A DNA stretch of 41,255 nucleotides from Gemmatimonadota bacterium (lineage in GTDB: Bacteria > Gemmatimonadota > Gemmatimonadetes > Gemmatimonadales > Gemmatimonadaceae), in contig JAZJZK010000031.1 in the NCBI GenBank assembly GCA_040389905.1, forward strand, positions 1 to 41,255, written 5' to 3'. The first letter of the stretch is position 1, and every line of letters starts with the position of its first letter. A program made the position numbers and the translations under genes. Below are positions 914-37,604 of the stretch, in pieces. Under the pieces are notes generated by a model. The model saw only the letters and a program-made list of their open reading frames with translations. It searched no databases and was not told the DNA's origin.

Positions 914-976
914 GGCTAACGTTCGTTGGAGCAGACGAGCGGACTGAGGTAGCTCGCTGCGCTCGCATTGATTTGA
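914..976 (+). other. attC site, left portion, interrupted by group II intron
   Basis: GGCTAAC-GTTCG-TTGGAGCAG...GCTCGCTGCGCTCGC matches the left arm and centre of the intact attC at 5866; it stops at the intron 3' end (977). Confidence 0.85.
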
Positions 977-1621
977 GTCGCGATAGGGACACCGGTTGCC
1001 CGGTGCCCCCCGCACAGATCCGTACGAGCGGAATTCCCGCATACGGCTCCTACTTTGGATGTGTGGCGTCGAAGCGCACATAGGGATAGGGATGAAGGAT
1101 GCGTGGGCGGGGTATCCACAGTGCAGCGACCGGTGCAAATCGAGCCCAGGTGATGTGACGTTTCTGACTGCGACGCCGGAGCCGACGGAACCACATTCGA
1201 CAGACTTCCCGACTGAAGCAGCGCAGACTCTCCCAGTTCCCGGGCACCGCGTGATAGTTGTAAAACCCCTGAATCACGCGACGCAGCCACTGCCCGACCT
1301 CGGGCACCGGGTCATGCCACCTCCGTTGCAACTCCGTCTTTACGGCGGCGAGCTTCTTTCGGAGGCGCTTCATGCTCGAGCGACGATGCACCCAAAACCG
1401 ATCGGTGCTGCGCGTGCGGCCACAGACGTGGGTGAACCCTAAGAAATCGAACGTCTCCGGCTTGCCTTCCCCTCGTCGCTTCCGATCGCTGGCGGCATAG
1501 CGACCAAACGCCAGCAGGCGCGTCTTGTCGGGATGGAGTTCCAGCCCGAACTGTCCAAGCCGCTCCCGCCATGCCGCCAAACACTGCTCGGCCTCGTGTT
1601 GATGCTGGAACCCCATGACGA
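977..1621 (-). mobile_element. 3' half of a class-E-like group II intron (RT C-terminus, domains V and VI)
   Basis: Domain V GAGCCGTATGCGGGAATTCCGCTCGTACGGATC, then a domain VI hairpin ending CCCTATCGCGAC at 977. Confidence 0.88.
1050..1621 (-). pseudogene. ltrA: C-terminal half of group II intron RT/maturase (after YADD; RT6-7 and domain X), class-E-like
   Basis: VMGFQ...RERLGQFGLELHPDKTRLLAFGR...GKPETFDFLGFTH...GFYNYHAVPGN...LRRRSQK...PRILHPYP. The first 22 aa of the ORF-track call are the inner intron's domain V/VI sequence. Confidence 0.88.
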
Positions 1622-3505
1622 GTCGAGTAGCGGAGGGGAATCGCACCCCTCCGCCCTCACAGAACCGGACGTGAGACTCTCGCCTCATCCGGCTCCTACT
1701 CTCCAGCCTCCGGTTTCACCCCGAGCTGCCACAACACAAACAAGGTGGGGTCCCCGTCGCGCGACGCGCCCTAACCAGTGCATCGACGCACGCTCTCGAC
1801 GGCGAAATCGGGTGTACTTCCGTCGCACCCATGCAGCAAGGGCCTCATTGAAAACGCGTAACACTTGAACACACTTCGACCGATAGAACCGGCCATAGTA
1901 GTTCATCCAGCCTTGTACGACTGGATTGGTGACCCGCGCCAGGTCCTCCAAACGCTGATTGTTCCTGGTGGCCGCCATCCGCCAATCGCGAATGGTCGCG
2001 CGGATCTTCTTGGCCGCCTTGGAGCTGATCGCTGGAAGGAAGCTCACAAAGAACTTCCCCCATCGATTCTTCGCCCGCCGAGGTTGGAAGGTGTACCCGA
2101 GAAAGTCGAACGTGATGTGCTCGTGCCTCCCGGGCCGGTCGTCATCTTTGCAGTACACGATGCGGGTCTTCGTAGGATGAAGCTCCATACCGCACTGCTC
2201 AAACCGACCACGAATGGCGTCCAACACTGCCTTGGCCTGCTCCTCACTGCCACAGTGCACCACCGCATCGTCCGCATACCGCTCGAACCGAACGCTCGGA
2301 TGGTTCCTCTGCATCCAGACATCGAACGCATAGTGCAGAAAGAGATTGGCCAGCAACGGACTGATGACGCCACCTTGCGGCGTGCCCTTCCTCCGTTCCA
2401 CCAACGACCCGTCCGCCCGTTGCACTGGTGCACGTAGCCACCGCGCAACGTAGAGCCGAATCCATGGCGAGTCAGTATGTCGTGCCACGGCGCGCTCAAC
2501 CAGATCATGCGGGATGGAATCAAAGAACCCCTTGATGTCCAAATCGATCACCCAGTCAGTCGTCCAGCAGCGCTTTCTCGCGACCCCGACCGCGTCGATC
2601 GCCGACTTGCCGGGACGATAGCCATACGAGTCGTCATGGAACACCGGTTCCACTCTCGGCTCGAACACCATCTTCACGACCGTCTGTGCTACCCGATCCG
2701 CGACGGTAGGAATCCCGAGTGGGCGCGTACCGCCGTTGTCCTTCGGTATCTCGACCAGCCGCACGGGCGGTGGGACGTATGCGCCCGACGACATCCGATT
2801 CCAGATCTTGTACAGATTGCCCTTCAGATCTTTCTCAAACGTCCCCAGAGACACACGATCCACGCCCGCTGCACCGCGGTTCGCCTTGACCCGTTGATAC
2901 GCTTTCCAAACGAGTTGCTTCGGAATGTCATACGGCTTTGCCTCAGACACCGGCTCCTCCCATTGCTGGTTGACCTGTCCCTTCGGCCAGAGAGTCGGGC
3001 TCCTTCGCTCCGCCCGCATTACCGGGCCTCCTCGCTACTACGAGCCCGTCCGCCCCTTCGCCTCGCATTGGTACTCTACTCCTCATGGGTCCACCACTTG
3101 GAGGTCTCCCTTCGCATCGAGGCGAGAGGTTCCCACGTTCCGCACAAGAGCCTGCGCTGAGCTCGCGCCACCTTCATGCCGGTCATCACTCGGGCAGTCG
3201 ACAGGCTTCCCCCCGAGCTCCTTCACAGGCCAACAACTGGAGCCTGCTTTCGATGACGTCCGTACGCTTTCGACACATTATCAGTGGTTCACTCGCGTTC
3301 GCCTTCTCAGCGCGCACCTGACGGGTTGATCCCGCCTTTTCCGTCTCGCTCACCACCCCAGCCATTGTGCCAGAGCAGCATCCGGTGGTTTGGACCCTGG
3401 TCCTGCAACCCGAGTCCGAGGGGCCAGCCCTCATCTCCTGTGCAGCAAGGCTGCATTGATTCGGCTTCTACATGCTTGCCTCCTCTTTGCGCCGTCGTGG
3501 CGCAC
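1622..3505 (-). mobile_element. Complete class-D-like group II intron (1884 nt) inserted one base after the YADD codons of a host RT gene
   Basis: 5' end GTGCGCCACG at 3505; domain V GAGCCGGATGAGGCGAGAGTCTCACGTCCGGTTC; 3' end ...CTACTCGAC at 1622; candidate EBS1/EBS2 pair with the 5' exon. Confidence 0.92.
1685..2950 (-). CDS. ltrA: Group II intron reverse transcriptase/maturase, class-D-like, no endonuclease domain; probable +1 frameshift near the C-terminus
   Basis: KPYDIPKQLVWKAYQRVKANRGAAGVD, LYKIWNRMSSG, RPLGIPTVADR, GTPQGGVISPLLAN, FERYADD. GTG start at 2950 follows GGAGGAG. Confidence 0.93.
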   Translation of the reverse strand: MSEAKPYDIPKQLVWKAYQRVKANRGAAGVDRVSLGTFEKDLKGNLYKIWNRMSSGAYVPPPVRLVEIPKDNGGTRPLGIPTVADRVAQTVVKMVFEPRVEPVFHDDSYGYRPGKSAIDAVGVARKRCWTTDWVIDLDIKGFFDSIPHDLVERAVARHTDSPWIRLYVARWLRAPVQRADGSLVERRKGTPQGGVISPLLANLFLHYAFDVWMQRNHPSVRFERYADDAVVHCGSEEQAKAVLDAIRGRFEQCGMELHPTKTRIVYCKDDDRPGRHEHITFDFLGYTFQPRRAKNRWGKFFVSFLPAISSKAAKKIRATIRDWRMAATRNNQRLEDLARVTNPVVQGWMNYYGRFYRSKCVQVLRVFNEALAAWVRRKYTRFRRRERASMHWLGRVARRGPHLVCVVAARGETGGWRVGAG

Positions 3506-4346
3506 AGTCGTCAGCATAGCGAACGAACCGGTGCCCCCGGCGCTCCAATTCCCGGTCGAGATCGTCGAGCAGGATGTTGCTGAGGAGCGGCGACAGGGGA
3601 CCGCCTTGCGGCGTGCCCTCTGTTCGGGGCGACATCACCCCGCCGTCCATGACGCCCGCTTGCAGGTACCGGCGTATCAGACGGAGCACTCGTTTGTCTG
3701 CAATCCTCCGGGCCACGCGCGCCATCAGGATATCATGGTTCACGCGGTCGAAGAATTTCTCGAGGTCCATGTCCACCACCCACCGATGACCCGCCGCCAC
3801 ATACTGCTGCGCGCGCCGCACGGCATCGTGGGCGCTCCGTCCCGGACGAAAGCCGTAGCTCGCCTCCGAGAAGGTCGGATCGATCAGCGGTTGAAGAACT
3901 TGGAGCAGGGCTTGTTGAATGAATCGGTCCAGTACCGTCGGGATGCCCAAGGACCGAAGACCGCCACCGGGTTTCGGAATCTCTACCCGACGCACGGGCT
4001 GCGGAATGTACTCGCCCTTAAGCAGCGTCTCCCGCACGCGCGGCCAGTGCACCGCGAGGTAGCCTTTGAGCTGGCCGACCGTCATGCCATCGGTGCCCGG
4101 TGCTCCCTTGTTCTGCACGACGCGCGTGTACGCCTTCACCAAGTTCTCGCGACGCAGCACCTCCTCCATGAGCGGTAACGTTCCTCCGTTCGTCACCTCG
4201 TCTTGTGCCGTGGACGTTTGACGCGCGCCTTCCCCCGCGACGTCGGCGATTCCGTCGCCGACGTCGCGGGTGTGCTCCGGCATCTCAGCCTTCTCGTCTG
4301 CGTCTCGCTCGTCCATCGAACGCCTCGCGTGCGAACGACTCTCCAT
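3506..4346 (-). pseudogene. ltrA: N-terminal half of group II intron RT (RT0-RT5 through YADD), class-C-like
   Basis: LMEEVLRRENL..AY.RV..NKGAPG.DGM, LGIPTVLDRFIQQA, VVDMDLEKFFDRVNHD, GTPQGGPLSPLLSNILLDDLDRELERRGHRFVRYADD; interrupted at 3505. Start codon uncertain. Confidence 0.9.
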
Positions 4347-4734
4347 GTTCGGCCCTTCGCCACGGTGCGCGCGTGGCTACTTCGGCCTCGGCTGACTGCT
4401 GCACTCCGTCGCCGTGCCTTTCAACGCGGCTAGCCCGCTACTCCGTGCGAGCAGACGTGCAGCTCTCCCAGGGTAAGATCTCAGACTGTCGCTCCATCTA
4501 CCCGCCGCATCTACGCCCGCTTGGTCCGGATGACATTGGGCTTCAGGTCCATAGGCCCCCTCGCCCCCAAACGGTCGCCTCCTATACGGTTCGTGTTCCT
4601 CGGGCCGGAGCTTTGCCTACAGCTTCCTCCCCACACCGCCTCGCGACGATGCAGTTGCTGTTCAGCTAGAGGTTCCTGTCATCAAGGTCCTCAGAGGTCT
4701 TCCACCTCCTAGCATGAGATCATGCCTGGCGCAC
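3506..4734 (-). mobile_element. 5' half of a class-C-like (IIC) group II intron
   Basis: 5' end GTGCGCCAGGCATG at 4734, followed by a short domain I-III region. It lies just downstream of the 8-bp hairpin GAGCGCGC-nnn-GCGCGCTC. Candidate EBS1 CUAU (4554-4551) pairs with the exon end AUAG. Confidence 0.88.
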
Positions 4735-4802
4735 CTATTGATGGAGCGCGCTCCGCGCGCTCACTTATGTGATTGCCCCGCAGCTCAACTTGGGCGTACG
4801 GT
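4735..4802 (+). other. attC site, right portion, with degenerate core site GTACGGT
   Basis: Central hairpin followed by GCAGCTCAACTTGGGC-GTACGGT, matching the right arm GCAGCTCACCTTGGGC-GTTGGGC of the intact attC. Confidence 0.8.
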
Positions 4803-37531: not shown

Positions 37532-37604
37532 TGGAGCGTACAGGGATCGAACCTGCGACCTCCTGGTTGCAAACCAGGCGCTCTCCCAGCTGAGCTAACG
37601 CCCC
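37532..37604 (-). tRNA. tRNA-Ala(TGC)
   Basis: GGGGCGT/ACGCTCC acceptor stem with G3:U70, AGCTCAGCTGGGAGAGC D arm, CCTGG-TTTGCAA-CCAGG anticodon arm, GGTTCGATCC T loop; CCA not encoded. Confidence 0.97.

What the first reader, a model, noticed from the sequence alone, without database searches (positions are those of the whole stretch)
1622..3518. Group II intron whose exon-binding sites read the YADD codons of other reverse transcriptase genes
Seen: the 5' exon ends TAT GCT GAC GAC T (Y-A-D-D plus 1 nt). A hairpin loop in the intron (stem CAGGC/GCCTG) contains AGUUGUU (3238-3232), which pairs with GACGACU over 7 nt with two G-U pairs. Upstream, AGCGUA (3268-3263) pairs with UAUGCU over 6 nt with one G-U pair. 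Established: EBS1/EBS2 pairing sets the target, and introns nested in other introns' RT ORFs are known, for example in Methanosarcina. Inference: this element parasitises retroelements by targeting their most conserved motif, and here it appears to have entered two different intron classes.
Basis: partly seen in the sequence, partly recalled or inferred. Interest (0 to 1): 0.78.

Follow-up and report, generated by a model that had tools for sequence, protein, structure and literature searches.

The report
Intron that targets reverse-transcriptase active sites
This mobile self-splicing intron sits exactly in the active-site (YADD) codons of other reverse-transcriptase genes, a habit in print since 2008; here it joins the halves of two unrelated introns, likely left by recombination between two copies, and its own gene carries a frameshift.

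Summary
Observation confirmed, with small corrections. The intron is 3505..1622 (minus strand). EBS1 is AGUUGUU (3238-3232), EBS2 is the 5-nt GCGUA (3267-3263) and EBS3 is A3174. In metagenome loci picked on the EBS alone, 80 of 97 distinct 5' flanks end in YADD+1 nt and 12 more are near-matches. Relatives with other EBS1 pair with their own, different flanks (5.8 of 7 versus 2.9 shuffled). The habit is published: Tourasse and Kolsto 2008 describe B.th.I3, M.a.I5, UA.I3 and P.l.I2 homing to RYADD, one of them in a retron-related RT. The window intron is 59-61% identical to a locus with B.th.I3's hallmarks, and this scan has noted the habit on other DNA. Not found in my searches: G-U wobbles and the linker absorb all four synonymous codon positions; the target has been switched repeatedly within class D; and the outer element here is a class C 5' half joined to a class E 3' half in two different attC types, on one single-depth contig. 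The intron's protein has a C-terminal frameshift. Whether YADD homing is ancestral to class D is unresolved. New member of a known kind.

The parts
1622..3505 (-). Inner group II intron, class D-like, 1884 nt, GTGCG...CTACTCGAC; single copy in the assembly
   Evidence: Rfam RF01999 3432-3316 and RF00029 1697-1622
1685..2950 (-). Intron-encoded RT/maturase, 421 aa, no endonuclease domain; one extra base in the run at 1752-1755 shifts the last ~20 codons out of the class D C-terminal motif
   Evidence: TIGR04416 422.8 bits; (table 4)
3263..3267 (-). EBS2 GCGUA, pairs -9..-13 (TATGC)
3232..3238 (-). EBS1 AGUUGUU in the loop of the CAGGC/GCCUG stem; family consensus AGUCGUU
3174..3174 (-). EBS3 (A), faces the first 3' exon base T1621
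   Evidence: alignment column reads G in RmInt1 and U in RmInt2, as PMC4615759 states
3506..3518 (-). Target: IBS2 3518-3514, linker 3513, IBS1 3512-3506; codons Y-A-D-D plus one base
3506..4734 (-). 5' half of a class C-like intron (RNA domains and RT up to YADD), inserted after a stem-loop inside an attC-like site
   Evidence: Rfam RF02001 and RF01998; 66-72% to class C anchors, 38-44% to D/E; empty site on C12
977..1621 (-). 3' half of a class E-like intron (RT after YADD, maturase, domains V-VI)
   Evidence: 47-54% to class E anchors, 25-28% to C/D; empty sites on C26, C42, C53
913..976 (+). Left part of an attC-like site of the type found intact on C26, C42, C53
   Evidence: 96% to C26 over 69 nt
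4735..4797 (+). Right part of an attC-like site of another type, found intact on C12

Best explanation
It is a class D-like, endonuclease-less group II intron of the published RYADD-homing lineage, whose exon-binding sites are complementary to the YADD codons of other RT genes and which likely inserts there by reverse splicing, and at this locus two such insertions likely recombined to leave one copy between a class C 5' half and a class E 3' half. Shown: boundaries, EBS-IBS complementarity, family-wide placement at YADD+1 nt, the two host classes, the two attC types, the frameshift. From established knowledge of class D (RmInt1): RNP recognition by EBS1/2/3 pairing, reverse splicing and priming at replication forks. 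Inferred: G residues of EBS2 and EBS1 face the three pyrimidine wobble positions (Tyr, Asp, Asp) and the fourfold Ala position lies in the unpaired linker, so the guide would accept any synonymous spelling of YADD; the intron hit a class E and a class C intron lying in the same orientation in a cassette array, and recombination between the two 1.9-kb copies deleted what lay between; the frameshifted C-tail likely leaves this copy with poor splicing and mobility.
For: Flank-blind selection: the metagenome scan used only the EBS pattern (121 loci); 80 of 97 distinct flanks are YADD, 12 near, 3 other, 2 tandem; with a start rule blind to the flank, 74 of 88. Protein-selected genome loci: 37 of 47 YADD, 7 near. 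Of 147 flanks, -11 is T67/C77, -5 T63/C82, -2 T66/C80. EBS1 covaries with the exon in 44 non-YADD relatives. Hosts include class C, D, E-like and unassigned introns and two retron-type RTs, L080 and L101. L080 has the 16-nt target and the ~25-bp repeats given for B.th.I3, and the window intron is 59-61% identical to it, inside the paper's 58-67%. One 3845-nt contig of run X1 spans 920-4764 without differences at depth 12.9, like its neighbours at 13.3-13.8. The outer halves lie in two different attC types. Deletion between nested copies by recombination is described for Methanosarcina (PMC4424553, passage).
Against: No splicing or homing assay and no RNA data. Single-sequence folds do not give the EBS1 hairpin. 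The two-insertion history is not observed: the missing halves are not in G000, which is 84.6% complete, and X1 may be the source of the assembly, so it is not independent. Only the B.th.I3-like locus was compared; M.a.I5, UA.I3 and P.l.I2 were not in hand. PMC3552965 uses the name B.th.I3 for an unclassified intron near class F, which I take to be a naming clash but could not check. The first EBS1 base tracks position -1 only loosely.
Confidence: 0.88

Rival explanations
1. The C/E chimera is an assembly artefact: two copies of the inner intron in two intact hosts were collapsed.
For: The repeat is 1.9 kb; mismatched halves also occur, by eye, in about 10 of 68 loci with both flanks, most of them short contigs. 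G000 is 84.6% complete.
Against: One contig spans the whole element at the depth of its neighbours; a doubled 1.9 kb would raise its mean to about 19-20. No class C 3' half or class E 5' half in G000. No second near-identical inner copy among the listed contigs, though those tables were cut.
Confidence: 0.1
2. The C/E chimera formed first, by a deletion at the short similarity around YADD, and the intron inserted once afterwards.
For: It gives the same final sequence, and EBS3 (A) matches the present +1 base T.
Against: The hosts' RTs are only about 42% alike (class C half versus class E anchors), a much poorer recombination substrate than two identical 1.9-kb copies, and the crossover would have to fall exactly at the insertion site.
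Confidence: 0.1
3. The intron recognises a short DNA motif anywhere, and its apparent preference for RT genes comes from selection removing insertions in useful genes.
For: Copies in non-RT frames exist: 4 of 51 metagenome flanks with 45 or more codons upstream, several Hoeflea and Singulisphaera sites. G000 holds 33 TAYGCNGAYGAY sites, nearly all outside RT genes and unoccupied.
Against: It does not explain why the same EBS pair, fitted to YADD codon degeneracy, is kept across at least 12 phyla while other class D EBS pairs are nearly all unique. It complements the best explanation more than it replaces it.
Confidence: 0.15

Closest known systems
B.th.I3 (sensu Tourasse and Kolsto 2008, PMC2504315 section 13, read whole), with M.a.I5, UA.I3 and P.l.I2
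   Same: Target is the RYADD codons plus one base; about 1.8-1.9 kb; no endonuclease; hosts are other group II intron RTs or a retron-related RT; 59-61% identity to the B.th.I3-like locus L080; same EBS2 and EBS1 differing at one base.
   Different: This copy lies between halves of two intron classes, not in one host; its protein is frameshifted; it is in another phylum-level branch (92.8% to a Gemmatimonadaceae copy, L001).
RmInt1 and RmInt2 of Sinorhizobium meliloti (class D, IIB3; PMC4615759 and PMC5894124, passages)
   Same: 52% IEP identity, same size, same EBS1/EBS2/EBS3 layout, head-to-tail copies also seen in relatives.
   Different: They target insertion sequences with other EBS sequences.
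Methanosarcina and Thermosynechococcus twintrons (PMC4424553, PMC2882425, passages; Dai and Zimmerly 2003 not held, not seen)
   Same: Introns that use other introns as a standing target; deletion of copies by recombination.
   Different: T. elongatus inner introns are ORF-less and insert between the first two ATGs; here the outer element is not one intron.
IIC-attC introns and class E fragments in cassette arrays (PMC7923331, passages)
   Same: Outer halves lie in attC-like sites, opposite to the cassettes.
   Different: The class C half follows CAATAG after an inner stem-loop, not TTGT/T at R''; the class E half has a defined site shared with three empty attC-like copies.

Membership tests
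RYADD-homing lineage (B.th.I3, M.a.I5, UA.I3, P.l.I2) | IBS1 and IBS2 are the RYADD codons of an RT gene | tested here: met
RYADD-homing lineage (B.th.I3, M.a.I5, UA.I3, P.l.I2) | 58-67% identity over about 1.8 kb to members | tested here: met
   59-61% to L080, which has B.th.I3's target and repeats; the other three members were not compared
RYADD-homing lineage (B.th.I3, M.a.I5, UA.I3, P.l.I2) | IEP without endonuclease domain | tested here: met
   421 aa, ends with the maturase tail, aligns end to end with RmInt1's 419 aa
RYADD-homing lineage (B.th.I3, M.a.I5, UA.I3, P.l.I2) | Site conservation limited to IBS1 and IBS2 | tested here: met
   136-146 of 147 at most fixed positions -13..-3 (131 at -12); weaker bias at -15, -16, -18 and +1 follows RT protein consensus
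RYADD-homing lineage (B.th.I3, M.a.I5, UA.I3, P.l.I2) | IIB-like RNA structure | tested here: met
   same Rfam D1-D4-2 family as L080; EBS1, EBS2, EBS3 columns shared with RmInt1; no full structure model was built
Bacterial class D (IIB3) | IEP groups with RmInt1 against other classes | tested here: met
   97-99% SH-aLRT against one class C and one class E outgroup; 52% versus 35-36% identity
Bacterial class D (IIB3) | C-terminal motif LX3AX3PXLF[V/A]HW (PMC4615759) | tested here: inconclusive
   encoded across a one-base insertion, so not in the reading frame of this copy; in frame in L001 with L for H; RmInt2 and L080 also miss my strict pattern
Bacterial class D (IIB3) | Splicing and retrohoming activity | not testable with these tools
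   no RNA run listed; needs an assay
Twintron | Removal of the inner intron leaves one complete outer intron | tested here: not met
   5' half class C, 3' half class E, in two attC types; a twintron remnant, not a twintron
IIC-attC intron (outer 5' half) | Insertion at TTGT/T in R'' of attC | tested here: not met
   inserted after CAATAG in the middle of the site; class C by protein

The most novel reading that the evidence does not exclude
YADD homing is not a side lineage of four introns but the ancestral habit of class D: a guide fitted to the codon degeneracy of the RT active site, kept across a dozen phyla, from which the IS-targeting introns (RmInt1 included) and dozens of other specificities arose by EBS change. 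Because every copy lands at the same codon phase in any RT, these introns would also act as portable crossover points that fuse RT halves of different intron classes, and can disrupt retron and DGR RTs.
Probability: 0.3. Interest if true: 0.62.

Novelty: new member of a known kind. Interest (0 to 1): 0.3.

Why it matters
The core idea, an intron that lives in the catalytic motif of other retroelements, is real but was described in 2008 from four examples. What this locus and its relatives add: the habit is widespread (the commonest single EBS pair in a class D sample drawn without regard to target, 13 of 61), the guide looks built to read an amino-acid motif through wobble pairs, close sister pairs show natural retargeting, and a C/E chimera shows how such insertions could shuffle intron halves. 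That bears on how group II intron classes keep or mix their RNA and protein parts, and offers natural before-and-after pairs for testing retargeting.

Tried and rejected
Single-sequence RNA folding did not place EBS1 in its hairpin; covariation was used instead. A 6-nt EBS2 was rejected. The idea that RmInt1 is nested among YADD-type introns: free trees put it there (95-99% SH-aLRT), but the AU test on 31 YADD rows against the RmInt1 group and outgroups did not reject a separate YADD clade (p 0.60, constrained tree 5.9 log units better), and parsimony ties at the root (16 versus 16; YADD favoured only if a gain costs more than a loss; no clear lead in the rows drawn without regard to target). 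The AU test on 119 rows did not finish. Whole domain I swapping as the source of the scattered pattern found no support: the RNA tree without EBS columns needs 17 changes like the RT tree and keeps sister pairs. No other copy in G000 and none in 36 genomes of the same genus. No RNA holder listed. No integron integrase over the cut-off in G000. L131 has a DGR-like flank by a recalled motif, but it is about 30 codons, frameshifted and was not scanned, so DGR targeting is not shown. Dai and Zimmerly 2003 is not held. Four loci from two genomes marked unpublished were left out of every count and tree. No supplements were read; they may list more members or targets.

Full report
What is there. The window is the start of contig C31 of G000. 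On the minus strand a complete group II intron runs from GTGCG at 3505 to CTACTCGAC at 1622 (1884 nt), with Rfam matches to domain I (RF01999) and domains V-VI (RF00029) and a 421-aa RT/maturase (TIGR04416, 422.8 bits). It is the only copy in the assembly. Its 5' exon ends TAT GCT GAC GAC T and its 3' exon begins TC GTC ATG, continuing the frame as an RT does after YADD.

The exon-binding sites. AGUUGUU (3238-3232) is the only full partner of the last seven exon bases in the first 560 nt. Folding the single sequence did not give the hairpin, so I tested by comparison. Among 44 class D introns with distinct, non-YADD EBS1, the homologous 7-mer pairs with the intron's own exon at 5.8 of 7 positions, against 2.9 +/- 0.2 for shuffled partners (maximum 3.6 in 10,000); 5' ends there were chosen without using pairing. 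The stem under the loop is paired in 109-115 of 116-117 rows at five columns, with several pair types. The EBS3 column reads G in RmInt1 and U in RmInt2, as that paper says, and A here, facing T1621.

Where relatives sit. A protein search of genomes returned 77 loci, the best of 592 confirmed in a partial scan. Of 63 YADD-type EBS matches in them, 58 had a located 5' end, giving 47 distinct flanks: 37 YADD+1, 7 near, 2 head-to-tail, 1 misplaced by a one-base loss. A metagenome scan on the EBS pattern alone, which cannot see the flank, returned 121 loci from 3 of 64 parts. 99 had a located 5' end, giving 97 distinct flanks: 80 YADD, 12 near (FADD, HADD, YAGD, YVDD and the like), 3 other, 2 head-to-tail. 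That script preferred an Asp-Asp-like start where several were possible; a rule blind to the flank gave the same 90 starts it found and 74 of 88 YADD. Of the 22 left out, 16 lack upstream DNA, two show YADD by eye and four have no recognisable 5' end. Of 51 metagenome flanks with 45 or more codons upstream, 47 look like RTs by motif and 4 do not. Hosts include class C, class D (self-nesting too), class E-like and many unassigned introns, and two retron-type RTs, L080 and L101. Named genomes with the YADD-type EBS span 12 phyla.

How the guide fits the motif. Over 147 distinct flanks the three pyrimidine third positions are split almost evenly (T67/C77, T63/C82, T66/C80), and each faces a G in EBS2 or EBS1; the fourfold Ala position lies in the unpaired linker. 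So any synonymous spelling of YADD can pair; that this is why the EBS is kept is inference. Recognition is of DNA, not of RT function: off-target copies lie in unrelated genes, and G000 has 33 core sites, nearly all empty, so selection or further determinants also shape where copies are found.

The outer element. The 5' half (4734-3506) is class C: 66-72% to class C anchors, 38-44% to D and E; the 3' half (1621-977) is class E-like: 47-54% to class E anchors, 25-28% to C and D. Anchors were the S. meliloti GR4 introns whose classes and replicons PMC5894124 gives and two plasmid introns. The halves lie in two different attC-like types, each with empty copies in G000 (C26, C42, C53 for the left; C12 for the right). 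In run X1 one 3845-nt contig spans 920-4764 with no difference at depth 12.9, against 13.3-13.8 for its neighbours; X1 may be the source sample, and those tables were cut. The missing halves are not in G000, which is 84.6% complete. The simplest history is two insertions followed by recombination between the copies. Mismatched halves appear, by eye, in about 10 of 68 loci with both flanks, mostly on short contigs where collapse is likely, so I draw no rate from them.

State of this copy. One extra base in the run at 1752-1755 moves the last 20 or so codons out of the class D C-terminal motif; relatives in three other runs and L001 lack the base. That tail serves maturase and insertion functions in RmInt1 (PMC5894124, PMC3552965, passages), so this copy is likely impaired.

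What is known. Tourasse and Kolsto 2008 (PMC2504315, section 13 read whole) report that B.th.I3, M.a.I5, UA.I3 and P.l.I2 insert at RYADD, share 58-67% identity, lack the endonuclease, and that B.th.I3's host is a retron-related RT. L080 has their 16-nt target and ~25-bp repeats at about the stated spacing; the window intron is 59-61% identical to it. PMC3552965 uses the name B.th.I3 for an unclassified intron; I could not resolve that clash. Earlier notes of this scan report the same habit on other DNA.

What may be new. In a class D sample drawn with RmInt1 from about 1,800 genomes of four phyla (centre genomes and four unpublished loci left out, and only 30 loci returned for Bacteroidota), 13 of 61 distinct introns carry the YADD-type EBS and no other pair occurs more than twice. 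YADD-type rows are not one clade apart from all others (AU p 5e-45); at least 10 changes are forced by well-supported branches, in RT and in RNA trees alike, with close sister pairs such as L018/L021 and L118/L075 differing in target. One origin with 17 losses or 26 separate gains would fit. Against the bolder reading, the root is unresolved: parsimony ties, and a tree with the RmInt1 group outside the YADD rows is not rejected and scores better. Seven paper searches found no treatment of this breadth, of the wobble fit or of cross-class chimeras, but the library holds only open-licence papers and lacks Dai and Zimmerly 2003.

Verdict. A real, well-supported feature and a new member of a known kind, in a probably dead chimeric remnant. 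Interest 0.3; the ancestral-habit and crossover-point reading has about 0.3 probability and would merit about 0.6.

Noticed in passing
window 977/976; G000 C26, C42, C53: A class E-like intron is inserted at a defined point (TTTGA^TCCGCT on the + strand) inside an attC-like repeat that has three empty copies in the genome; class E in attC arrays is reported only as fragments in the one paper I saw (PMC7923331).
   Followed up: partly
window 4734/4735; G000 C12 about 190,300: The class C-like intron follows an internal stem-loop in the middle of an attC-like site, not the TTGT/T site of IIC-attC introns.
   Followed up: partly
L006-L014 (Hoeflea), L064, L150, L202: Repeated self-nesting at the intron's own YADD and head-to-tail stacks of copies at one site; L064 stacks three different introns.
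   Followed up: partly
L021 and L326: A relative keeps EBS2 GCGUA but has EBS1 AGUCCAU and sits at the codons YAMD in a non-RT frame; sister to YADD-type L018. A natural retargeting by two base changes.
   Followed up: partly
L257, L263: An intron 67% identical to RmInt1 has EBS1 UGUCGUC and flanks reading HADD and HGDD, close to the YADD-type target.
   Followed up: no
L080 1530-4631: Retron-related RT in a 164-kb viral contig between a DNA ligase and a gene of unknown function, flanked by ~25-bp repeats; matches the unexplained retroelement of PMC2504315.
   Followed up: partly
L131 1026-1120: About 30 codons of a DGR-like RT (recalled motif, YVDD) precede an intron with EBS1 GGUCGUU.
   Followed up: no
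G065 (L228, L233, L238, L242, L246, L250, L253): Singulisphaera holds six full copies: five share one host-intron flank and one is at an off-target FADD site.
   Followed up: partly
window 37532-37604: tRNA gene on the minus strand (Rfam RF00005).
   Followed up: no
tree: Non-YADD class D introns have longer root-to-tip lengths (0.93) than YADD-type ones (0.58); root-dependent.
   Followed up: no
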